DNA of 64,000 bases from Rhodoglobus sp. (GTDB lineage: Bacteria > Actinomycetota > Actinomycetes > Actinomycetales > Microbacteriaceae): assembly GCA_046155245.1 (NCBI GenBank), contig JBJXDR010000113.1:4878-68877 (forward strand). The letters are read 5' to 3'. Below the pieces are notes generated by a model. That model did no database searches and was not told the origin of the DNA. It saw nothing but the letters and a program-made list of their open reading frames with translations. Positions 9,198 to 19,556 of the stretch are shown here, piece by piece (positions within the stretch are counted from its first letter, which is position 1; the number at the start of each line of letters is the position of its first letter). The translations under genes were made by a program, and so were the position numbers.

Positions 9198-9557
9198 CTA
9201 GATCGGCCAGTCTTTGTGCAGCTCCGAGCCGATACCAAGGGAACTCAGGTCCGCGGTGACGGCATGCCACAAGTCACTGAAGATCTGGTCGGCGTCGCCC
9301 GTCCAGTCGTTTGGAATCGGGGTCGGCGAATCGACGGTGTACGAGACGACGTATCCCGGAGCCGAGGAGTCGTCCCAAGACAGCGAGACGTTGAGCCTCG
9401 CGTTCTCCAGCTTCACGTCGTCATCACCGTCGCCGAATCTGTCGGCGACGTACTCATAGTCGTATGAGAACTGGTACGAGTCCTCCTGCTTCATCGAACG
9501 CAGGTACTCGTCTTCATCCTCGAACTCTTCGCCGGTCGAGTGGTTCACGAACGACAC
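9198..9557 (-). CDS. Small, highly acidic hypothetical protein
   Basis: GTG start with GAGAGG upstream; 119 aa, about 27 Asp/Glu versus 6 Lys/Arg by hand count. Confidence 0.65.
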   Translation of the reverse strand: MSFVNHSTGEEFEDEDEYLRSMKQEDSYQFSYDYEYVADRFGDGDDDVKLENARLNVSLSWDDSSAPGYVVSYTVDSPTPIPNDWTGDADQIFSDLWHAVTADLSSLGIGSELHKDWPI

Positions 9558-9702
9558 TGGACGACCTACCTCTCGCATTCTCTGCCCAGGCGACGCTCGC
9601 CTCTCAGCACTGTCATCACAGTAGCCGGGCGCGCGGACGGTCGAGCCTGCGCACCTATCGGGTAGCAATCCTCTCTCGGCAGGAGAAGTTAGGAGCATCC
9701 CG

Positions 9703-10143
9703 ATGCGAACCAAAGAATCCCTGTGGGGCTTCTTCGCCAGCGACCCGCAGTTGTCCTTCAACGAGGACGGTGAGGCGCGGCTGTTCGCCTGGATCGGTCA
9801 GGAGCAGTTCGAGCGCAACCCGGACGGCTCGTTCACCCAAGGCGAGACGAAGTTCTACCCGTTCAAGATGTTTCGGCGCAGCGCGGAGCACGCCTACGAG
9901 AAGTTCGCGCGCGGCGAAAACTTCGTCGCCAGCGGCCACGTCCAGATGTTCAGCTACGAGAAGAACGGCGAGACGGTCAGCGGCGAGGAGTTCATCGCCA
10001 CGCACATCGGCCCCGACGCCGCCCGCACGAGCTACGCCGTCGACCGTGGCCGCTCGCGGTCGCAGCAGGTCGAGAGCACGACCATCGAAGCGCCCGACCC
10101 GACCCTCCCGCAGCAGCCGTCGCCCCGTCCGATGACGCTGTGA
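9703..10143 (+). CDS. ssb: Single-stranded DNA-binding protein (ICE type)
   Basis: GFFASDPQLSF...GEARLF OB-fold-like start typical of actinobacterial ICE SSBs; AGGAG RBS. Confidence 0.75.
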   Translation: MRTKESLWGFFASDPQLSFNEDGEARLFAWIGQEQFERNPDGSFTQGETKFYPFKMFRRSAEHAYEKFARGENFVASGHVQMFSYEKNGETVSGEEFIATHIGPDAARTSYAVDRGRSRSQQVESTTIEAPDPTLPQQPSPRPMTL

Positions 10144-10152
10144 GGCCGCGTC

Positions 10153-10767
10153 ATGACCACCGAGACGACGCTGTTCCCGCCAGACGATCCCGACTTCGAC
10201 GTGCCCCCGCCCGAAGAGCCGGAGCCGGAGCCGGTGACCCCTTCGCCGAGGCCGGCCAAGGAGGCGGACCCCGAGACGGAGGACACGCCCGAGCCGCCGC
10301 GCCCGGTGAACTGGAACATCCTGACCGCGGCCGAGGCGCAGGTGGAGTGGCTGGAGCTGAACGCCTTCGTGAACTGGCTGCGCCACGAGTTCGGGCTGAG
10401 CGTGAACGTCGTGCCACCGTATTGGCACCGGCACCCGGAGCTGGTGTGGCCGCTGTCGGCGCTGCGCCAGCACTACCTGAATGCCTACGACAAGAAGCAG
10501 CACGGCTCGGCACCGTTCGGCTGGTGGCGAGATTTCTGGGCCTTCATGCCGCAGCTTCGGGACGCGGTGACCGCGTGCGGCACGAAGCTCAACACGGATC
10601 GCCCGACGCGGCAGGCGGTGTGGCCGGGCGAGGACGAGCACCCCGCTCCCGTGGAGACGGTGATCCCCAACCGGGACGCCGACTTCACGCAGTTCGTCAA
10701 GGAGGACGTGGCGCGCAGGCAGGCGATCGAGGACGAGTTCTACGCCCACCTCGCGGCGGAGCAGTAG
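10153..10767 (+). CDS. DUF4913-like hypothetical protein
   Basis: WLELNAFVNWL...PPYWHRHPELVWPLSAL Trp-rich motif. Confidence 0.6.
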   Translation: MTTETTLFPPDDPDFDVPPPEEPEPEPVTPSPRPAKEADPETEDTPEPPRPVNWNILTAAEAQVEWLELNAFVNWLRHEFGLSVNVVPPYWHRHPELVWPLSALRQHYLNAYDKKQHGSAPFGWWRDFWAFMPQLRDAVTACGTKLNTDRPTRQAVWPGEDEHPAPVETVIPNRDADFTQFVKEDVARRQAIEDEFYAHLAAEQ

Positions 10768-10787
10768 GGCGCGGGCGGTGACGGCGA

Positions 10788-13700
10788 ATGGCGCGGCAGC
10801 GATCCCGGAAGCCCTGGCCGGGGCAACTGGAGTTCGATCTGTGGGGGCTCGACGAGCCTGCGGCCGACGCCGCGCTCACCACCGCTCTGGAGGCTGGGGC
10901 AGGTGATGAACAAGTACGGGCAGATGGCGCTGTCGCATTGGCAGGCGACGGCCCTGAGCCGGGTGGCGGAACTGAACGATCCCGCGGCGTTCTTCGAGGC
11001 GATGGGCCTGGAGATGCAGGCGCAGGTGACGAACCTCGCGTCAATGCTGGCGGGGGGCGACCGGCAGGGGGAGACTTTCTTGCAGAAGGTCGCCCGGCTG
11101 ACAGCGGCCCGGAGGCAGGCGGAGGAGGTCGTGATGTCGCAACTGGCGTGGATCACCGACCCGAGCCTGCCGCTGGATCAGGCGCGGGAGGAATGGGAGC
11201 AGACCCGACCCTCCGACGAGAACCTGATCCTCTGGGCGGAGCGGATGCAGGACTGCCCGGATTCGATGCCCTCCTCCGTGGAGCTGGAGGAACTGGCGAA
11301 GAAGTGGGCGCTCAGCGTCGAGTTCCTGCTGGAGCTCGTGGCGACGGAGCCCCCGCGGGAGTACATGCGGGCGAATCAGGCGGCGCTCGCCGAGGCGGCG
11401 ACGATCCGCTTCTTCCGCGAGCTGCGGTAGCACCCCGGTTCGTTCCCGCCTCCCAGGACGACCTCGGGCCGTCGGGCGCAAAGGCCCGCTATCGGGCGAA
11501 CGTGGAGGCCATCCAGCTCATCCACGATCTGAACTCCACGGGTCGCCCCGCGTCCCGGGACGGACAACGGGTGCTCGCCCGCTGGTCGAGCTGGGGCGCG
11601 ATCCCCGAGGTGTTCGATGACCTGAAACCCGAGTGGGACGCCGAGCGCGCCGAGCTGCGCGAGTTGCTGGGCGATGACGAGTGGGAGGCTGCGGAGCGGA
11701 CGACCATCAGCGCGCACTACACCGACCCGATGATCGCCCGGCAGGTGTGGCGGCTGCTGGACGGGCTGGGGTTCCGCGGCGGTGCGGTCCTCGAGCCCGG
11801 CTCCGGGTCGGGTACGTTCATCGGCCTCGCGCCTGAGTCGGCCCAGATGACCGGGGTGGAACTCGACCCGCTGACAGCGGCGATCTGCGCCGAGCTGTAT
11901 CCGCACGCGACCGTCCGTGCCGAGTCCTTCGCCGACACGCGACTGCCCGAAGGACACTTCGACGCTGCCATCGGCAACGTGCCGTTCAGCAGCGTCACCC
12001 TGCACGATCCGCTGCACAACGCGACCCGGCAGTCGATGCACAACCACTTCATCATCAAGTCGCTACGCCTGACCCGGCCGGGCGGCCTCGTCGCGCTGCT
12101 GACCTCGCACTACACGATGGACGCGCAGAACCCCGGGGCGCGGCGGGAGATGAACGAGCTGGCTGACCTCGTGGGCGCGATCCGCCTGCCCACCGGGGCG
12201 CACCGCCGCGCCGCTGGGACGGAGGTCGTGACCGACCTGCTCGTGTTCCGGCGCCGGCTGCCCGGCGAGCAGATGCGCGACGACGCCTGGGAGACGGTTG
12301 CGCAGGTTCCCATCGACGGCGTGCCGATGCGGATCAACCGCTACTTCGATGAGCACCCGGAGCAGATGCTCGGGGAGGTCGGCGTCGGGCACGGGATGTA
12401 CGACGCGAGCACGCTCACCATCACGACCGATCTGACCGACCTCGAGGCGGAACTCGCGGTCGCCGTCGACCAGCTCGTGTTCTCCGCGCGCCGGGCCGGT
12501 CTGACGATCACGGAGCGCACCGCCGAGCAGCAGGCGCGCCGCGCGGCGTTCACCCCGTCGGCGCCGGAGCTGTGGGACGGCAGCATCGTCGCGGGCGAAA
12601 GCGGCGGGTTCCGCACCGTGGTCTCGGGCTCGCTGGAGCCGCTCGCGGTGCCGAAGTCCGCCGAGCGCGAGCTGCGGGCCCTGCTGCGCCTGCGCGACGG
12701 GGCATCCCGCCTGCTGACCGCGGAGGCAGCGAGCGTGGACGACACGCCTGACATCGTGCTCACCCGCACGACGCTACGTCGCGACTACCTGAAGTACGTC
12801 GGCACCTACGGGGCGCTGAACCGCTACACGCTGCGCCCCACCGGGCGGACGAACGAGGATGGCGAGGAGACCTTCGCCCGCATCGTGCCGACCGCGATCC
12901 GCCTGCTGCGCTCCGATCCGTTCGGTCCCCTGGTGCTCGCACTCGAACAGTTCGATGACGAGGATCAGTCCGCATCGCCCGCTGCAATCATGAGCCACCG
13001 CGTGGTGGTGCCGCGAGCCGAAGTACAAGGCGTAGACAGCCCCGCCGATGCCATCGCCGTCAGCCTCGACCGAACCGGCGGGATCGACCTCCCCCTCATC
13101 GCCGACCTGCTCGGCATGAGCGACCACGACGCCCGCGAGGCGCTGGGAAACCTCGTGTTCGCCGACCCGACGACCGACCAGCTCATCCACGCCCCCGAGT
13201 ACCTATCCGGCGATGTGCGGGTCAAGCTCGAAGCCGCCCGCCTGCGCGCGGAGCAAGACCCGGAGTTCCAGCTCAACGTGGACGCGCTGGCCGAGGCACT
13301 GCCCGCGCCACTCGGCATCCAGGACATCCACGCGAAGCTCGGTGCGGTATGGATCAGCGCCGACGTGCACGAACGGTTCCTGCGGAGCATCCTGCGCGCC
13401 GAAGACGTGCGCGTCGAGAACCCGCTGCCGGGCATGTGGGAGATCCGCGGCGGACGGCAGGGCCTGCCCTCCACCTCGGAGTGGGGCACACCGCGCCGCC
13501 CCGCGCCGGACATCGCCCAGGCCGTCATGGAGCAGCGGACGATGCTCGTCTACGACGAGGAGAAGGACATCGACGGCAAGGTGCGCCGCGTGCTCAACCC
13601 CGTCGAAACCGCCGCCGCGCAGGAGAAGGCCGACGCCCTCCAGGAACGGTTCAGCGATTGGGTGTGGGAAGACCCGGCTCGCGCACAGGCGCTCGTAGAC

Positions 13701-16439
13701 GAGTACAACCGGCGCTTCAACTCCATCGTGCTCCGCGACTACACCGACGCGGGGGCGTACCTGTCGCTGCCCGGCCTGGCGTCGAACTTCGAGCCGCGCA
13801 CGCACCAGCGCGCCGCCGTCGCGCGCATGGTGTCCGAGCCCGCCGCGGGCCTGTTCCACGAGGTCGGCGCGGGCAAGACCGCGGAAATGATCATGGGCGC
13901 GATGGAGATGCGCCGGATGGGGCTCATCAGCAAGCCCGTCGTGGTCGTGCCGAACCACATGCTGGAGCAGTTCGGACGCGAGTGGCTCCAGATCTACCCG
14001 CGCGCCCGCGTGCTCGCCGCATCCAGCCTCGACCTCACGGCAGACAAGCGGCGGCTGTTCGTCGCCCGCGCTGCCGCGAACGAGTGGGATGCGATCATCG
14101 TCACGCAGGGTGCGTTCGCCAAGGTCCCCCTGCGCGCATCGACCCAAGAGCAATACATCCGCGGGCAAGTGGAGGACGTGCGGCGAGTGCTGGGCGAGGC
14201 GACCGGCGAGCAGCGGATGAGCGTCAAGCGCATTCAGCGCAAGCTCCTGGCGATGGAGAACAAGCTCAAGGAGCGCACCGATACCGACCGCGACCGCGGC
14301 GTCTGCTTCGAGGACACCGGCATCGACTACGTCATCGTCGACGAGATGCACATGTACAAGAACCTCGCCACGGAGTCGAACATCCGCGATGCCGCCATCG
14401 AGGGCTCGGATCGCGCGAGCGACCTGCACATGAAGCTCGAATACCTCCGCTCGGCGGGGCGCGAGCGGGTCGTGACCGCGGCGACCGCGACACCCATCTC
14501 GAACTCGATCACCGAGACCTACGTCATGCAGCGATACCTGCGGCCCGACGTGCTGGAGTCGGCGGGGGTCGGCGCGTTCGATGCGTGGGCGGCGACGTTC
14601 GGCGAGCTGGTCACGCAGATGGAGATCTCGCCGACGGGCAGCACGTTCCGCATGAAGACCCGCTTCGCCCGATTCCAGAACGGGCAGGAGCTGCTGCGAA
14701 TGTGGTCGGTGTTCGCCGACGTTAAGACCGCCGACGACCTCGACCTGCCCGTGCCCGCGCTCGTGCAGCGCGACGACGGCAGCCGCGCGCCCTCCACCGT
14801 GCCGGTGCAGCCGACCGTCGAACTGGAGCAGTACGTCGCTTCCCTCGCCGAGCGCGCCGAGAAGGTCGCCACCCGCCAGGTACGGCCCGACGAGGACAAC
14901 ATGCTCCTGATCGCCACCGACGGACGCAAGGCCGCGCTCGACATCCGCATGGTCATCCCCCACGACCCGTCCGGCCCGAGCAAGGTCGACGTCGCCGCCG
15001 ACGCGATCCACCGCATCTGGGAGCGCACCCGCGACAACGAATACCTCGACACGCTGACCGGGCAGCCCTCCACGGTGCGCGGGTCGCTCCAGCTCGTGTT
15101 CTCCGATATCGGCACCCCGAACCAGGACAGGTGGAACGCCTACGACGAGCTGCGGCAGCAGCTCGTGCAGCGCGGCGTCCCCGCCGAGCAGGTCAGGTAC
15201 ATGCATCAGGCGAAGACCGACGTGGAGAAGGCCCGCCTATTCGCCGCGGCCCGCGCCGGCCACGTCGCCGTGCTCCTCGGATCGACGGAGAAGATGGGCG
15301 TCGGCACCAACGTCCAGGCCCGCGCCATCGCACTGCACCACCTGGACTGCCCGTGGCGGCCCTCCGACATCGCCCAGCGCGACGGGCGCATCCTGCGGCA
15401 GGGCAACCAGAACGAGGAAGTGGCGATCGTCCGCTACGTCACCGAGCGATCCTTCGACTCCTACATGTGGCAGACCGTCGAGCGGAAAGCCGCGTCGTTC
15501 GCGCAGCTCCTGCGCGGCAAGATCAACGCCCGCGAGATCGAGGAGATCGACACCTCCGCACTGTCCGCAGCCGAGGCCAAGGCAATCGCCTCCGGCAACC
15601 CGCTCCTGCTGGAGCACTCCGTCATCCTCAACGAGGTGAACCGGCTGCGACGCCTCCAGCGCGCGCACGAACGCAACGAGGACATGCTCGTCCACACCGG
15701 CAATCGCGCCCGGTCAGCCGCCGAGCGCGCCGCCGCGGACATTCGCGGGCTGGAAGCCGCAGCCCCACGGATGATCGACACGAGCGGCGACAGGTTCCGC
15801 ATCACGCTCGGCACGCGCGACTACGACTCCCGCTCCGAAGCCGCGCACGCCCTCGCCGCGTGGATGGGCGACTCCGGGCTGAAGTGGCAGCCGCGGTACG
15901 GGCACAAGGATTTCGGGATCATCGGCCGCATCTCCGGCTTCGACGTCCACGTCGAGGCCCGCTCCGGGCTCGCCGCACTCGATGTGACCGTCTCCCTGCC
16001 CGAGGTGCCCCGCTCGGGCTTCACCATGCCGAAGGAGTCGTTCCTGGACGCCGGGCTCGGGCTCGTGCAGCGCATCGAGAACCGTGTCAGCGGCATCCCC
16101 TCCCTCCTCGACCAGGCCCGCGAAGACCTGAGAGAAGCCGAGCAGACCGTCGCCGACACCCAGCAGCGCCTGGGCCAACCGTTCCGCCACGCTCAGGCCC
16201 TCGCCGACGCCGAGGAAGACCTCGCTCGCGTCGAGTCCCAGCTCGCCGCGATGCACGACGAACCCGCACCCGAGCCCGCCGCGCCAGAGTCTGAGCGCGT
16301 CGAGCTGACCATCGAAGCAGTGCGCTCCTACGAGCCGAACCTGGGATCACGAGAGGGCACGGACGTTCCCGCTGCGGGAGACTGGAACAGTACCGCTGCC
16401 CACAGCCCCGAGAGGGAACCGCCGGGACTGCGACTGTGA
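10788..16439 (+). CDS. DarB-like giant N6-adenine methyltransferase / SNF2-type SF2 helicase fusion
   Basis: MTase motif I VLEPGSGSG and motif IV GNVPF; helicase HEVGAGKT, IVDEMH, TATPISNS, KMGVGTNVQ, QRDGRILRQGN. Confidence 0.9.
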   Translation: MARQRSRKPWPGQLEFDLWGLDEPAADAALTTALEAGAGDEQVRADGAVALAGDGPEPGGGTERSRGVLRGDGPGDAGAGDEPRVNAGGGRPAGGDFLAEGRPADSGPEAGGGGRDVATGVDHRPEPAAGSGAGGMGADPTLRREPDPLGGADAGLPGFDALLRGAGGTGEEVGAQRRVPAGARGDGAPAGVHAGESGGARRGGDDPLLPRAAVAPRFVPASQDDLGPSGAKARYRANVEAIQLIHDLNSTGRPASRDGQRVLARWSSWGAIPEVFDDLKPEWDAERAELRELLGDDEWEAAERTTISAHYTDPMIARQVWRLLDGLGFRGGAVLEPGSGSGTFIGLAPESAQMTGVELDPLTAAICAELYPHATVRAESFADTRLPEGHFDAAIGNVPFSSVTLHDPLHNATRQSMHNHFIIKSLRLTRPGGLVALLTSHYTMDAQNPGARREMNELADLVGAIRLPTGAHRRAAGTEVVTDLLVFRRRLPGEQMRDDAWETVAQVPIDGVPMRINRYFDEHPEQMLGEVGVGHGMYDASTLTITTDLTDLEAELAVAVDQLVFSARRAGLTITERTAEQQARRAAFTPSAPELWDGSIVAGESGGFRTVVSGSLEPLAVPKSAERELRALLRLRDGASRLLTAEAASVDDTPDIVLTRTTLRRDYLKYVGTYGALNRYTLRPTGRTNEDGEETFARIVPTAIRLLRSDPFGPLVLALEQFDDEDQSASPAAIMSHRVVVPRAEVQGVDSPADAIAVSLDRTGGIDLPLIADLLGMSDHDAREALGNLVFADPTTDQLIHAPEYLSGDVRVKLEAARLRAEQDPEFQLNVDALAEALPAPLGIQDIHAKLGAVWISADVHERFLRSILRAEDVRVENPLPGMWEIRGGRQGLPSTSEWGTPRRPAPDIAQAVMEQRTMLVYDEEKDIDGKVRRVLNPVETAAAQEKADALQERFSDWVWEDPARAQALVDEYNRRFNSIVLRDYTDAGAYLSLPGLASNFEPRTHQRAAVARMVSEPAAGLFHEVGAGKTAEMIMGAMEMRRMGLISKPVVVVPNHMLEQFGREWLQIYPRARVLAASSLDLTADKRRLFVARAAANEWDAIIVTQGAFAKVPLRASTQEQYIRGQVEDVRRVLGEATGEQRMSVKRIQRKLLAMENKLKERTDTDRDRGVCFEDTGIDYVIVDEMHMYKNLATESNIRDAAIEGSDRASDLHMKLEYLRSAGRERVVTAATATPISNSITETYVMQRYLRPDVLESAGVGAFDAWAATFGELVTQMEISPTGSTFRMKTRFARFQNGQELLRMWSVFADVKTADDLDLPVPALVQRDDGSRAPSTVPVQPTVELEQYVASLAERAEKVATRQVRPDEDNMLLIATDGRKAALDIRMVIPHDPSGPSKVDVAADAIHRIWERTRDNEYLDTLTGQPSTVRGSLQLVFSDIGTPNQDRWNAYDELRQQLVQRGVPAEQVRYMHQAKTDVEKARLFAAARAGHVAVLLGSTEKMGVGTNVQARAIALHHLDCPWRPSDIAQRDGRILRQGNQNEEVAIVRYVTERSFDSYMWQTVERKAASFAQLLRGKINAREIEEIDTSALSAAEAKAIASGNPLLLEHSVILNEVNRLRRLQRAHERNEDMLVHTGNRARSAAERAAADIRGLEAAAPRMIDTSGDRFRITLGTRDYDSRSEAAHALAAWMGDSGLKWQPRYGHKDFGIIGRISGFDVHVEARSGLAALDVTVSLPEVPRSGFTMPKESFLDAGLGLVQRIENRVSGIPSLLDQAREDLREAEQTVADTQQRLGQPFRHAQALADAEEDLARVESQLAAMHDEPAPEPAAPESERVELTIEAVRSYEPNLGSREGTDVPAAGDWNSTAAHSPEREPPGLRL
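10906..11430 (+). CDS. TnpV-like protein nested out of frame within the helicase gene
   Basis: MNKYGQMA...RLTAARRQAEEVV resembles TnpV; strong GC3 bias in this frame; GCAGGTG upstream. Confidence 0.7.
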   Translation: MNKYGQMALSHWQATALSRVAELNDPAAFFEAMGLEMQAQVTNLASMLAGGDRQGETFLQKVARLTAARRQAEEVVMSQLAWITDPSLPLDQAREEWEQTRPSDENLILWAERMQDCPDSMPSSVELEELAKKWALSVEFLLELVATEPPREYMRANQAALAEAATIRFFRELR

Positions 16440-16521
16440 AACGCTTAGTGCAGGTTCTCGTTCTGGCTTGTAGACTAGACAACCGCAGGTTCTCGTATCC
16501 CGTTGCTGAAAGGAGTGTGTG

Positions 16522-17226
16522 ATGTCGATCTTGCTCGCGCCCCGCCGAAACCGCCAGGGCGCTGCCGCAGCCCGGCGCGCCGTGCTCGCGTCGCGGGGGC
16601 GCTTCTGGGAGCCGGGCGATTTCTCGCTCACTCCGTCGACCGCGCATCATCTGCTCGGCGAGCTGGAGGCTCGCGGCGAGCTGCGGCGCGTGCGACGCGG
16701 CCTGTACTGGCGCGGCACGAAGACGCCGCTGGGCATGGCCCCGCCCCCGACCGAGCGACTGATCGATGCGCTCGCCCCCGGCCCCGGCGTCGGTCCTGCG
16801 GGCCTGTCCGCGGCGAACCTGCTGCGCCTGTCGACGCAGATCCCGCGCCGCGCACTGGTGGCCGTTCCCGAGCGGGCTCCGTCGGATGCTGGGCCGGTCT
16901 CGTTCGTGTCCCGCGCGACGCGCACCGGACGGGCGAAGGCTGGGCTGAACGCCACCGAGGTCGCCGCGCTCGAAGTCCTCGACGACTGGAACGCCGTGCT
17001 GGAGGTCACCCCGGACAAGGCCGCAAGGCGGCTGACCGACCTGCTGCGCAGCGGCGGCCTCCGCGCCGAGCGGCTCACCCAGGCTGCGGCCACCGAGCCG
17101 GGCCGCACTCGTGCGCGCCTCGCCGCGCTGCTCGCTGCGGCCGGGCGGGACGACCTCGCGGCACGGATTACGTCACCGGACCCCCGCACGCGCCAAGCGG
17201 CGCTCGCCACCTTGGCAGCGGCATGA
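16522..17226 (+). CDS. Type IV TA antitoxin (AbiEi/DUF6088-like wHTH)
   Basis: L.RGELRRVRRGLYW motif; AGGAG RBS; ATGA coupling to nucleotidyltransferase. Confidence 0.8.
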   Translation: MSILLAPRRNRQGAAAARRAVLASRGRFWEPGDFSLTPSTAHHLLGELEARGELRRVRRGLYWRGTKTPLGMAPPPTERLIDALAPGPGVGPAGLSAANLLRLSTQIPRRALVAVPERAPSDAGPVSFVSRATRTGRAKAGLNATEVAALEVLDDWNAVLEVTPDKAARRLTDLLRSGGLRAERLTQAAATEPGRTRARLAALLAAAGRDDLAARITSPDPRTRQAALATLAAA

Positions 17227-18212
17227 CCGATTCGACGCTGTGGCGGGACGACGATCCCGAGGTGCTCCGCGGCACGTTCCTCGCCGCCGCGGAACGCCTC
17301 GGCGTGCAGCCGCTCGCAGTCGAGAAGGACTACTGGGTCTGCGAGGCGCTGCGCGCGATGACGACCGCCCATCCGGGCGAGGTTGTCTTCAAGGGCGGCA
17401 CGAGCCTGGAGAAGCTGCGGATCATCCGGCGCTTCTCCGAAGACCTCGACCTGCTCGTCATCGGCCAGTACCCGTCGAAGAACGCCGAGCAGCGCGCGCT
17501 GCGAACCCTGCTCACCACCGCGGCGGAGGCGACCGGCGCGGAACCGACCGGGGTGACAGCGGGCGGCAGCTCCGGCTCGTTCCACCGATCCGGTTACCTC
17601 AGCCCGCCGCTGGAGCACCGCGGCGAGCCCGGCGTGATTGCCGACCCCGCGGCGATCCTCGTGGAACTCGGCCAGTCCGGTGGGCCGAACCCGCACGCCC
17701 CGCACCCGGTCACCTCGCTCCTGGCACGCGAGCTGGCCGACTCGGGCTTCGACACGAGCGCGTGGGATGACCTGGCCTCCTTCGACGTGCCGATCCTGCA
17801 TCCGGGACGCACGCTGCTGGAGAAGCTGCTGCGAGTGAACAACTTCGCCGCCGACCCCGAAGCCGCAGCCTCACCGCACGGCTGGCCGCGCATCGGCCGA
17901 CAGCTCTACGACATCTCCGCACTGCTCCGCGATCCCTCCGTGCGCGAGTTGCTGGCAGACAAGTCACTCGTCGCCGACATCCTCACCAGCGCCCGCGAGG
18001 TCTCCGCGGCGTTCGGCAAGCCCGACCTTCCCACGCCCGCCGGCGGCTTCGCCGCATCACCGGCATTCGACGCGGCATCCCCTTTCGCAGACCGCCTCCG
18101 AGCCGAGCACGACGCAGCCATGCGCGACCTCTACTACGGCACCGACGCACCGCCGAGCTTCGGCGACATACTGGCTCAGGTTCGGGCAGACGCGGCGCTC
18201 CTCGAACCCTGA
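17223..18212 (+). CDS. Nucleotidyltransferase toxin, AbiEii/AbiGii family
   Basis: VEKDYW, VFKGGTSL, RFSEDLD, RTLLEKL, RQLYD motifs. Confidence 0.92.
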   Translation: MTDSTLWRDDDPEVLRGTFLAAAERLGVQPLAVEKDYWVCEALRAMTTAHPGEVVFKGGTSLEKLRIIRRFSEDLDLLVIGQYPSKNAEQRALRTLLTTAAEATGAEPTGVTAGGSSGSFHRSGYLSPPLEHRGEPGVIADPAAILVELGQSGGPNPHAPHPVTSLLARELADSGFDTSAWDDLASFDVPILHPGRTLLEKLLRVNNFAADPEAAASPHGWPRIGRQLYDISALLRDPSVRELLADKSLVADILTSAREVSAAFGKPDLPTPAGGFAASPAFDAASPFADRLRAEHDAAMRDLYYGTDAPPSFGDILAQVRADAALLEP

Positions 18213-18233: not shown

Positions 18234-19556
18234 TCATGCGTCGATGCCCGCGAACGCCTCGTCGAGCGCGTCAGCGGCGACCTCGACGATGAGGTCGGGA
18301 CGCTTCGCGTAGTGCCCTTCCGTGATGTCGGTACTGCTGTGCCCGAGCAGGTCGCGTGCGACCTCGACGCCAGCCGTGTCCGATACCGCCGCAGCGACCG
18401 CCTTGCGGAGGCTGCGGAAGGTGAGATGCTCGGCGTCGACCCCAATAGCCAGCAGTTCCGGCTCGAACTCGCGGCGGAACATCCTGAGCAACTCGCCGAC
18501 CGCGCTGGGGTCGCGCGGACGGCCGCGCTCGGTCGTGAACAGTACGTCGTCTGGATTCCGTTCGGGGTCGGGAACGTGGCTCGCCACGAGTTCGCTCAGT
18601 ACCTTCGCCGCGAACTTCGGAACGCGAACCCAACGCTTCTGCCGCTCCGCTTTGGGCGAGTCCTGGCGAAACAGGCCGCGGGACTTGGTGCGAACCATCG
18701 TCCCGCCGACCCAGACGAGCGCCTCCATCGTGAGGCTTCCATCCGATTGTTCCACCGCCTCGAACCGCACGTCCTGGAGCCGGATCGCAATCGGTTCTGC
18801 GGTCCTCTCGGAGGTGCCGAGCGTGATGAGGATGTAGTCGGCGAGCAGCTTGTAGTTGGGCCGTCGGCCCACCGGATACCGTTTCCGGTGCCGCTCGGGC
18901 CACACCTCGCGGATGAGGTGGAGGATGTACTTGACCTGCACCGCGTCGAGTTCGAAGTACACCGTGTCCGGCTCGTCCGCTCGTCTGGTCGCACGGATCG
19001 GGTTCGCCACGACGACCGCTCCGTACCGTGTGTTCTGGATCGACCCGGCAGCCGAGAAATGCCCCTGCTGGATCGCCCAGTCGAACATGAGCGACATCAC
19101 GTTCCGAACCTTGTTCGCGGTCGTCACCGACTTCTCCCGTGCGATGTCCATAAGCAACCCATCAGCACGGTCGGCGGTGATGTCAGCGATGGCGATGGCC
19201 CCGGCGCGCGGGATGACATGCGCTCGGACCACCGAGGCGTAGCCATCGACGGTCTGCTCGCGGCGCTGGCGCAGCACCCGCGGATCGTCGTCGTGATACG
19301 CCGTCTGAAGCCACGTCGTCGCCAGCTCGGCGACGGTCATGAGCTGTGTTCGTCGCGCCAGGACTCGACCGACTGCGGCATCGGCCGCTTCCTGCAACGC
19401 GGCCAGCGCCTCGGCTTCGGTCGCTCCGCTACCGCTCGGACGACGCTCGTGCCCGTTGCCGTCGTAGACCCGTCCTCGCGCGATGACGAGACCGCTCGGC
19501 TCGACGGTGTAGGTCACCTTGCCGAGTTCGCCGAGCGCACGCTTCGGCCGCGCCAT
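18234..19556 (-). CDS. Tyrosine recombinase / integrase
   Basis: R..E (ERTAE), FRSLRK, LLGHSS...HY catalytic set. Confidence 0.92.
   Translation of the reverse strand: MARPKRALGELGKVTYTVEPSGLVIARGRVYDGNGHERRPSGSGATEAEALAALQEAADAAVGRVLARRTQLMTVAELATTWLQTAYHDDDPRVLRQRREQTVDGYASVVRAHVIPRAGAIAIADITADRADGLLMDIAREKSVTTANKVRNVMSLMFDWAIQQGHFSAAGSIQNTRYGAVVVANPIRATRRADEPDTVYFELDAVQVKYILHLIREVWPERHRKRYPVGRRPNYKLLADYILITLGTSERTAEPIAIRLQDVRFEAVEQSDGSLTMEALVWVGGTMVRTKSRGLFRQDSPKAERQKRWVRVPKFAAKVLSELVASHVPDPERNPDDVLFTTERGRPRDPSAVGELLRMFRREFEPELLAIGVDAEHLTFRSLRKAVAAAVSDTAGVEVARDLLGHSSTDITEGHYAKRPDLIVEVAADALDEAFAGIDA

What the first reader, a model, noticed from the sequence alone, without database searches (positions are those of the whole stretch)
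10788..11502. Dual-coding DNA: a TnpV-like gene nested in the +1 frame of the methylase-helicase N-terminus
Seen: the ORF at 10906-11430 has strong GC3 bias and a TnpV-like sequence. The helicase frame has GC3-rich codons at 10788-10900 (including QLEFDL), reads as Gly/Ala/Asp-rich filler through the overlap, and resumes a domain-like sequence (FVPASQDDLGPSGAKARYRAN) right at 11430. The first in-frame start after the nested gene (GTG 11502) would cut that motif, and the other starts I found (11193, 11304) also overlap. Caveat: this alternative frame often stays open by chance in high-GC genes, so the argument rests on the start constraint. Inference: about 525 nt encode two proteins, one as a disordered linker. 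I saw no canonical slippery heptamer at the junction.
Basis: partly seen in the sequence, partly recalled or inferred. Interest (0 to 1): 0.65.

Follow-up and report, generated by a model that had tools for sequence, protein, structure and literature searches.

The report
Gene nested inside helicase's disordered linker
A conserved 174-residue gene lies entirely inside, and out of frame with, the start of a 1883-residue methylase-helicase gene of a conjugative element, and comparison with about 80 related elements indicates that both reading frames are kept for translation, which is rare in bacteria and is missed by most public annotation.

Summary

- **Nested gene:** ATG 10906 to TAG 11430 encodes a real, conserved 174-aa all-helical protein. 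It is distantly TnpV-related and lies in the +1 frame of ORF 10788-16439, a DarB-like methyltransferase/SNF2 helicase on an ICE.
- **Open helicase frame:** In 71 of 71 distinct homologous loci (49-99% protein identity) the helicase frame has no stop across the nested gene. About 16% would be expected from synonymous shuffles and from control windows of the same genes. The joint probability over 17 diverged clusters is about 1e-14.
- **N-terminal peptide:** Upstream of the nested gene, in the helicase frame, lies a conserved peptide, MAR(R/Q)R..PGQLE[F/L]DLWG. It shows synonymous codon variation and has its own Shine-Dalgarno in many loci. The polypeptide therefore most likely starts at 10788.
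- **Own initiation signals:** The nested gene has its own GGAGG plus ATG/GTG in 60 of 63 distinct upstream sequences.
- **Linker:** AlphaFold predicts helicase residues 37-216, essentially the overlap, to be disordered.
- **Wider relatives:** In eight more distant actinobacterial plasmids examined, a TnpV-like gene sits in the same relative frame inside the helicase-frame ORF. In one, a primase domain lies upstream.
- **Annotation:** Most public gene calls start the helicase downstream and cut a conserved motif.
- **Limits:** The clamp-binding role of the N-terminal motif is inference only.

The parts
10153..10767 (+). Upstream ICE gene (204 aa, weak DUF4913-like). Its stop lies 20 nt before the long ORF's start.
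   Evidence: PF16259, E 0.0022, below cut-off. In Thermobifida pTH1 the gene at the same position is annotated as DUF4913.
10788..16439 (+). Long ORF of 1883 aa: a DarB-like N6-adenine methyltransferase / SNF2 helicase. ATG 10788 is the proposed true start.
   Evidence: Pfam: SNF2-rel_dom at residues 1006-1267, Helicase_C at 1463-1539, methyltransferase at about 334-435. PHROG 'DarB-like antirestriction' E 1e-12. The start is conserved as ATG/GTG before M-A-R-R in all loci, with SD-like sequences in many.
10821..10847 (+). Conserved N-terminal short linear motif G-Q-L-E-F-D-L-W-G (residues 12-20). It resembles beta-clamp-binding motifs.
   Evidence: Q13, D17, L18, W19 and G20 are invariant in 24 diverse sequences. 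Third-position synonymous variation accompanies conserved residues. It resembles QLxLxL / QLxLF (PMC4564189) and ImuB QLPLWG (PMC10421592). It is the only such motif in the host genome.
10889..10893 (+). GGAGG Shine-Dalgarno-like sequence for the nested gene, 12 nt before its ATG. It lies inside the helicase reading frame.
   Evidence: an SD-like core is present at -16 to -4 in 60 of 63 distinct upstream sequences.
10906..11430 (+). Nested gene in the +1 frame relative to the helicase. It encodes a 174-aa all-helical protein, a distant TnpV relative.
   Evidence: 148 homologues of 174-182 aa, with 47 invariant columns. AF2 mean pLDDT 83 with 10 helices. GC3 is 0.92. The TnpV link is shown. It is single-copy in the host genome.
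10896..11435 (+). Helicase-frame residues 37-216: a Gly/Ala/Asp/Pro/Arg-rich predicted disordered tether, encoded almost wholly by the overlap.
   Evidence: AF2 pLDDT is about 30 with no secondary structure over residues 37-216. About 85% of residues are disorder-promoting and about 13% hydrophobic. Helicase-frame GC3 here is 0.43.
11439..11501 (+). First conserved segment of the helicase body, FVPASQDDLGPSGAKARYRAN, starting 8 nt after the nested stop.
   Evidence: F218, P228, G230, A233, R234, A237 and N238 are invariant. The AF2 confident region begins around residue 230.
11502..11504 (+). GTG, the first canonical in-frame start after the nested gene. The 1644-aa public call for a 95%-identical orthologue has the length expected from this start, which removes the conserved motif.
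   Evidence: +72 from the nested stop. P0125 from Microbacterium paludicola is 1644 aa, and most other calls are 1610-1690 aa.

Best explanation
About 525 nt (10906-11430) are read in two frames from one operon mRNA.

**Frame A (helicase).** Translation starts at ATG 10788 and makes the 1883-aa DarB-like methyltransferase/SNF2 helicase. Its first about 20 residues are a conserved short linear motif, MARQRSRKPWPGQLEFDLWG. Residues about 37-216 form a flexible, disordered tether whose sequence is dictated by the other frame. The folded enzyme begins at FVPASQDDL.

**Frame B (+1, nested gene).** Translation starts independently at its own GGAGG-N12-ATG (10906) and makes a folded 174-aa helical protein distantly related to TnpV.

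**Likely origin (inferred).** The nested gene 'owns' the sequence: GC3 is 0.92 in its frame and 0.43 in the helicase frame. Its family is large, with about 1000 representatives, many of them short one-domain proteins. The tether is therefore probably the younger, overprinted frame. It would have arisen when the helicase ORF extended upstream across tnpV and captured an N-terminal docking module: a clamp-binding-like peptide here, a primase domain in a Micromonospora plasmid.

**Likely function of the motif (inferred, about 30-35%).** It may dock the enzyme to the beta sliding clamp (DnaN) on element DNA that is being replicated or newly transferred.

**Shown versus not shown.** Shown: both ORFs are conserved, stops are excluded from frame A, the N-terminal peptide is under protein-level selection, both starts have initiation signals, and frame A is predicted disordered in the overlap. 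Not shown: translation of either product, and any function of TnpV or of the motif.
For: 1. Frame A is stop-free across the nested gene in 71/71 distinct loci at 49-99% identity. The expected open fraction is 0.02-0.47 per sequence from synonymous shuffles and 16% (51/314) in control windows of the same helicase genes. The product over 17 clusters below 75% aa identity is about 1e-14. Other alternative frames are mostly closed: f+1 0/70, r1 2/70, r2 2/70.
2. The N-terminal peptide upstream of the nested gene is conserved at the amino-acid level with synonymous variation: four Gly codons, CAA/CAG, CTG/CTC/CTT/TTG, GAT/GAC (alignments).
3. SD-like sequences precede the long ORF's start in many loci and the nested start in 60/63.
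4. No canonical start lies between 11304 and 11502 in the window's clade, and 11502 cuts the invariant motif.
5. Four-fold synonymous differences are 0.13 in the overlap and 0.25 in the adjacent helicase, while amino-acid differences are higher in the overlap (0.087 against 0.049).
6. AF2 gives the nested protein pLDDT 83 and helicase residues 37-216 pLDDT about 30 with no secondary structure.
7. Eight more distant plasmids show the same relative frame. P. aurescens pTC2 has an annotated helicase that covers the TnpV-like ORF. A Micromonospora plasmid has a DnaG_N domain (E 9e-8) upstream in the same ORF. A Streptomyces giant ORF starts 2.7 kb upstream. Thermobifida pTH1 retains a truncated remnant.
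Against:
- Most public gene callers start the helicase downstream.
- In the more distant clades (about 60% identity or less) several loci have GTG/TTG starts between the nested stop and the conserved motif. A short isoform is therefore possible there.
- In the window's own clade the SD before ATG 10788 is weak (GGGCGGTGA).
- The lower synonymous divergence could partly reflect recombination mosaics.
- Loci share ancestry, so 71 is not the number of independent trials.
- In one Streptomyces plasmid (L086) the upstream extension is short and lacks the motif.
Confidence: 0.82

Rival explanations
1. Only the nested gene is translated in the overlap. The helicase starts downstream, at GTG 11502 or a non-canonical codon near 11430. 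The upstream conserved peptide would be a separate leader or regulatory peptide, or a nucleic-acid element, whose frame merely runs on.
For: Most public gene calls are 1610-1690 aa. Several distant loci have GTG/TTG starts just before the conserved motif.
Against: - A leader peptide would need a stop, and none exists in 71/71 loci although 84% of control windows contain one.
- GTG 11502 removes an invariant motif.
- The upstream peptide varies synonymously, so it is protein and not an RNA or DNA element.
- A primase domain lies upstream in-frame in a relative.
Confidence: 0.08
2. The open helicase frame across the nested gene is a by-product of high GC content (GC3 about 0.92 makes stops rare) and carries no function.
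For: Shuffles give a 14% chance for the window alone. The antisense frame r0 is open in 24/70 loci.
Against: - The frame is open in 71/71 loci against a 16% baseline, with a joint probability of about 1e-14 over 17 diverged clusters.
- The frame also continues to a conserved start and peptide upstream.
Confidence: 0.01
3. The products are joined by programmed ribosomal frameshifting. One version is a -1 shift at the end of the TnpV-like frame that makes a TnpV-helicase fusion. Another is a +1 shift from the N-terminal peptide into the TnpV frame. Under this reading there is no true dual coding of the whole overlap.
For: The two frames are always in the same relative register. Frameshift fusions are common in mobile elements (general knowledge).
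Against: - I saw no slippery heptamer near 11400-11435 when reading the sequence.
- A fusion model does not require, and so does not explain, a stop-free helicase frame over all 174 codons.
- The nested gene keeps its own start codon, SD and stop everywhere.
Confidence: 0.04
4. The nested ORF is not a gene. Its apparent conservation would be a shadow of constraint on the helicase frame.
For: No Pfam, NCBIfam or PHROG hit and no structural match.
Against: - GC3 is 0.92 in the nested frame and 0.43 in the helicase frame.
- There are 47 invariant columns and a conserved start and stop.
- AF2 predicts a confident helical fold.
- The family has about 1000 representatives, including short one-domain relatives that reach Pfam TnpV.
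- The helicase-frame product is predicted disordered.
Confidence: 0.03

Closest known systems
Embedded same-strand gene pairs such as phage lambda Rz/Rz1, phiX174 B-in-A and E-in-D, and Bacillus subtilis comS inside srfAB (from my own knowledge)
   Same: A complete gene with its own start lies out of frame inside a larger gene on the same strand, and both products are made.
   Different: The nested gene here is long (174 codons). The host gene is a roughly 200-kDa enzyme of conjugative elements in high-GC Actinobacteria. The overlapped part of the host protein is a disordered tether between a docking motif and the enzyme. Expression is not yet shown.
Overprinting in viruses, where the de novo frame tends to encode disordered protein (Rancurel et al. 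2009, from my own knowledge)
   Same: One frame looks ancestral, being folded and having normal codon usage. The other is compositionally odd and predicted disordered.
   Different: This is a bacterial plasmid/ICE context. The novel frame is not a new protein but a linker that joins an N-terminal module to an existing enzyme.
Phage P1 DarB and plasmid-borne methyltransferase-helicase antirestriction proteins
   Same: A methyltransferase plus SNF2/DEAD helicase architecture. The PHROG 'DarB-like antirestriction' profile matches residues 189-271 at E 1e-12. It is carried on a mobile element next to T4SS genes.
   Different: No nested gene or N-terminal QLxxDLWG tether is described for DarB, as far as I know and as far as the paper searches showed.
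TnpV (Pfam PF14198) of Tn4451-type and other Gram-positive mobile elements
   Same: The N-terminal about 87 residues are homologous to short proteins, one of which passes the TnpV threshold. NCBI names actinobacterial relatives 'TnpV protein'.
   Different: The window protein itself does not hit PF14198, has an extra C-terminal helical domain, and is nested in another gene. TnpV function is unknown.
Beta-clamp-binding motifs: QLxLF / QLxLxL, and mycobacterial ImuB 352-QLPLWG-357
   Same: GQLE[F/L]DLWG fits QLxLxL in many orthologues (QLELDL) and ends in LWG as in ImuB. It sits at a disordered terminus, as the N-terminal motif of E. coli Hda does (my own knowledge).
   Different: The window has F at position 4, the motif is 8 residues long, and no binding has been tested.

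Membership tests
Functional nested (dual-coding) gene pair | Both reading frames stay intact in diverged homologues beyond chance expectation. | tested here: met
   71/71 open against a 16% control and 2-47% in shuffles; about 1e-14 over 17 clusters. The nested ORF is intact, with a conserved start and stop.
Functional nested (dual-coding) gene pair | Each ORF has its own translation-initiation signals. | tested here: met
   SD-like sequence plus ATG/GTG before M-A-R-R and before M-N-x-Y-G in 60/63. This is sequence-level evidence only.
Functional nested (dual-coding) gene pair | Reduced synonymous variation in the overlap. | tested here: met
   Four-fold site differences are 0.13 against 0.25 in the adjacent non-overlapped gene. 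Recombination could contribute.
Functional nested (dual-coding) gene pair | Both products detected (proteomics, Ribo-seq, tags). | not testable with these tools
No proteomics resource was available.
TnpV (PF14198) | Scores above the Pfam gathering threshold (27 bits). | tested here: not met
   The window protein has no hit even at E 10. Relatives score 19.9-23.9 bits. A distant relative, P0328, scores 30.2 bits. The homology is therefore transitive and covers the N-terminal domain only.
DarB-like methyltransferase-helicase | Methyltransferase domain followed by SNF2-type helicase domains in one polypeptide. | tested here: met
   Pfam SNF2-rel_dom and Helicase_C are above cut-off. The methyltransferase is weak (19.6 bits, below cut-off). 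PHROG DarB-like is E 1e-12. JGI names homologues 'N12 class adenine-specific DNA methylase'.
Beta-clamp-binding motif proteins | Peptide matching QLxLF or QLxLxL in a disordered, terminal or exposed position. | tested here: inconclusive
   QLELDL in many orthologues matches exactly. The window's QLEFDL has F at position 4. The position is N-terminal and low-pLDDT.
Beta-clamp-binding motif proteins | Physical binding to DnaN. | not testable with these tools
   No complex prediction or binding assay was available.
Programmed ribosomal frameshift site | Slippery heptamer with a downstream stimulator at the frame junction. | tested here: not met
   I saw no X XXY YYZ motif when reading 11400-11440. 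No formal scan was run.

The most novel reading that the evidence does not exclude
In a whole lineage of actinobacterial ICEs and plasmids, the DarB-like methylase-helicase gained its N-terminal docking module by extending its reading frame backwards through the pre-existing tnpV gene. Here that module is a beta-clamp-binding peptide; elsewhere it is a primase domain. This would make tnpV's alternative frame a roughly 180-residue disordered tether. The tether would let the enzyme ride on the sliding clamp while element DNA is replicated after transfer. The nesting would also lock the two products' expression together.
Probability: 0.28. Interest if true: 0.85.

Novelty: new variant of a known kind. 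Interest (0 to 1): 0.72.

Why it matters
- **Rarity.** Well-supported long same-strand nested genes are rare in bacteria. High-GC genomes are where such claims are usually dismissed as chance open frames. Here the comparative signal is strong and spans many genera, so it offers a clean test system with cultured carriers.
- **Evolution.** It gives a concrete example of overprinting that creates a linker rather than a new protein.
- **Annotation.** It points to a systematic error: most deposited helicase models of this family are cut at the N-terminus and lose a conserved motif.
- **Biology.** It suggests a testable recruitment mechanism, clamp docking, for a common but poorly understood conjugative-element enzyme.

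Tried and rejected
- **Family searches for the nested protein.** Pfam, NCBIfam and PHROGs gave no hit.
- **Fold searches.** Foldseek of its AF2 model against PDB and BFVD gave nothing below E = 1. Function stays unknown.
- **Literature.** Searches for nested or overlapping genes in actinobacterial ICE helicases, and for TnpV, found no description of this arrangement.
- **Motif in the host genome.** A six-frame search for other QLx[FL]DLWG-type motifs found only this one. No shared docking motif on other ICE proteins was seen.
- **Earlier scan notes.** None concern this sequence.
- **Non-overlapping arrangement.** I looked for one in Thermobifida pTH1. It turned out to be the same nested layout with a truncated helicase remnant.
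- **Rejected readings.** A chance open frame, a frameshift fusion and a spurious nested ORF are covered under the rival explanations.
Full report
**What is there.** The window carries an integrative conjugative element. A VirD4/TraG-type coupling protein lies at 7345-9156 and an SSB at 9703-10143. A weak DUF4913-like gene lies at 10153-10767. Next comes the large ORF 10788-16439, followed by an AbiEii-domain gene at 16503-18212 and an integrase at 18234-19556 (-). The chromosomal glnE and glnA follow.

The large ORF is 1883 aa. It has a weak methyltransferase match at about residues 334-435, an SNF2 domain at 1006-1267 and Helicase_C at 1463-1539. A PHROG 'DarB-like antirestriction' profile matches residues 189-271 at E 1e-12.

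Inside it, in the +1 frame, lies ATG 10906 to TAG 11430, 174 aa. Every coordinate in the finding is correct. The in-frame helicase starts are 10788, 10938, 11148, 11193, 11304 and then 11502.

**The nested gene is real.**
- It has 148 homologues at E <= 1e-3. Nearly all are 174-182 aa, come from Actinobacteria, and are unnamed or 'hypothetical'.
- There are 47 invariant columns among 21 sequences down to 55% identity.
- AlphaFold gives a confident all-helical two-part fold, mean pLDDT 83. It has no structural match in PDB or BFVD.
- Its GC3 is 0.92.
- It has no Pfam, NCBIfam or PHROG hit.
- A profile search of 1.8 billion representatives finds about 1000 relatives. Many are 90-140 aa and match only positions 1-87. 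One of these passes Pfam TnpV's threshold and others come close. NCBI calls such plasmid relatives 'TnpV protein'.

'TnpV-like' is therefore a fair but indirect description of the N-terminal domain.

**The helicase frame is kept open on purpose.** I fetched 80 genomic loci that encode a relative of the nested protein.
- In all 78 loci that also matched the helicase query, it lies immediately downstream in the same relative frame. Its frame runs without a stop across the whole nested gene, to an ATG/GTG 100-200 nt upstream of it.
- Synonymous-codon shuffles of each nested gene leave that frame open in only 2-47% of trials, typically about 15%, with about 1.5 stops expected per sequence. The observed count is zero stops in 70 of 70 distinct sequences.
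- As an empirical control, 174-codon windows of the non-overlapped part of the same helicase genes have the equivalent frame open in 51 of 314 cases (16%). The nested gene is open in 71 of 71.
- Taking one representative from each of 17 clusters below 75% identity, the joint probability is about 1e-14.
- The other alternative frames are mostly closed.

**The polypeptide starts upstream of the nested gene.**
- Between the upstream gene's stop and the nested start, the helicase frame encodes M-A-R-(R/Q)-R...P-G-Q-L-E-[F/L]-D-L-W-G. Q13, D17, L18, W19 and G20 are invariant across 24 diverse sequences.
- The codons vary synonymously: all four Gly codons, CAA/CAG, four Leu codons, GAT/GAC. The conservation is therefore at the protein level.
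- Many loci have a good SD before this start, for example GGAGGTGATCGCTG-ATG and GAAGGAGACCACT-ATG. The window's own SD is weaker.
- In the window's clade no canonical start exists between 11304 and 11502. Position 11502 lies just after an invariant segment (FVPASQDDLGPSGAKARYRAN), so a protein started there lacks it.
- The nested gene also keeps its own GGAGG-type SD in 60 of 63 distinct upstream sequences, and an ATG or GTG start everywhere.

**What the overlapped part of the helicase looks like.**
- It is about 85% Gly/Ala/Pro/Asp/Glu/Arg/Ser/Thr/Gln and about 13% hydrophobic.
- Helicase-frame GC3 is 0.43 here, against 0.91 elsewhere in the gene.
- With a 24-sequence alignment, AlphaFold gives pLDDT of about 30 and no secondary structure for residues 37-216. 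Confident helices start at about residue 231. The nested gene spans helicase residues 40-214, so the predicted disordered tether coincides with the overlap.
- Among close relatives (86-99% identity), four-fold synonymous differences are about half as frequent in the nested gene as in the adjacent helicase (0.13 against 0.25). Amino-acid differences are higher (0.087 against 0.049). This is the expected signature of a second constraint. Recombination is a caveat.

**The arrangement is widespread.** Eight more distant actinobacterial plasmids were inspected.
- Arthrobacter pA19BH1 and Arthrobacter sp. U41 have the same layout.
- P. aurescens TC1 pTC2 has an annotated 1829-aa 'putative helicase' that covers a 118-aa TnpV-like ORF in the +1 frame. 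Its N-terminus is MAGRKKQIDGQLSFEALW.
- Nocardioides JS614 pNOCA01 has the N-terminal peptide ...DQLALWDLG.
- A Micromonospora plasmid has an annotated 2502-aa helicase with a DnaG-primase domain (PF08275, E 9e-8) upstream of the nested gene in the same ORF.
- A Streptomyces chartreusis linear plasmid has a giant annotated ORF that starts 2.7 kb upstream of the nested gene.
- Another Streptomyces plasmid has only a short upstream extension.
- Thermobifida pTH1 keeps the same layout, but the helicase is truncated after its first about 45 conserved residues.

In all eight, the TnpV-like gene has no stop in the helicase-type frame.

**Public annotation.** Most deposited or predicted helicase proteins of this family are 1610-1690 aa. 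These lengths fit a start after the nested gene. An example is the 1644-aa 'SNF2-related protein' of Microbacterium paludicola. A few gene calls use the long form, at 1883-1909 aa.

**Mechanism proposed.** One mRNA is read in two frames, each from its own start.
- Frame A yields the enzyme with an N-terminal docking peptide on a tether of about 180 residues.
- Frame B yields the TnpV-like protein.
- The nested frame has normal codon usage and a folded product, and it belongs to a large family. The helicase frame is compositionally a 'shadow'. The tether is therefore most likely the younger frame, made by extending the helicase ORF across tnpV. This is inference.
- The docking peptide fits the bacterial clamp-binding consensus QLxLxL / QLxLF (PMC4564189). 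It ends like mycobacterial ImuB's QLPLWG (PMC10421592). Docking to DnaN is a reasonable but untested idea, at about 30%.

**Limits.**
- The loci are related, so the statistics rest on the cluster-level estimate.
- A shorter helicase isoform may co-exist in clades that have starts just before the conserved motif.
- The functions of TnpV and of the motif are unknown.
- I found no description of this arrangement in the paper library or in earlier notes of this scan.

Noticed in passing
window 16503-18212 (+): A 569-aa ORF lies directly downstream of the helicase. It has an AbiEii nucleotidyltransferase toxin domain (E 1.5e-21) only in residues 288-558, and the N-terminal about 280 residues are unassigned.
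   Followed up: no
L085 (Thermobifida halotolerans pTH1) 6922-7698: The helicase-type frame spans the TnpV-like gene and reaches FRPASQDDLAQSGTKTRVRANIAAIRMLRRLQDEQRP, then ends. This is a truncated remnant of the methylase-helicase. PGAP annotates only the small gene.
   Followed up: partly
L088 (Streptomyces chartreusis linear plasmid) and L086 (Streptomyces sp. NBC_00470): Giant annotated 'UvrD-helicase domain-containing' genes span 32.7 kb and 26.2 kb. Each has a TnpV-like ORF nested in, or abutting, its 5' part in the same relative frame.
   Followed up: partly
L083 (Micromonospora sp. NBC_00821 plasmid) 4746-12254: A 2502-aa helicase has an N-terminal DnaG-primase domain, then a linker that overlaps a TnpV-like ORF, then the methylase-helicase body. 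The same tether position joins a different N-terminal module.
   Followed up: partly
Public protein models of the family: The precomputed Pfam families PF28553, PF28554 and PF28555 are listed for all homologues but are absent from the local Pfam copy, so their names and extents could not be checked.
   Followed up: no
window 10896-10903 and equivalent sites in the related loci: The helicase-frame residues just before the nested start are rich in Glu and Gly (for example EGEA, QEDR) because those codons spell the nested gene's Shine-Dalgarno sequence.
   Followed up: partly
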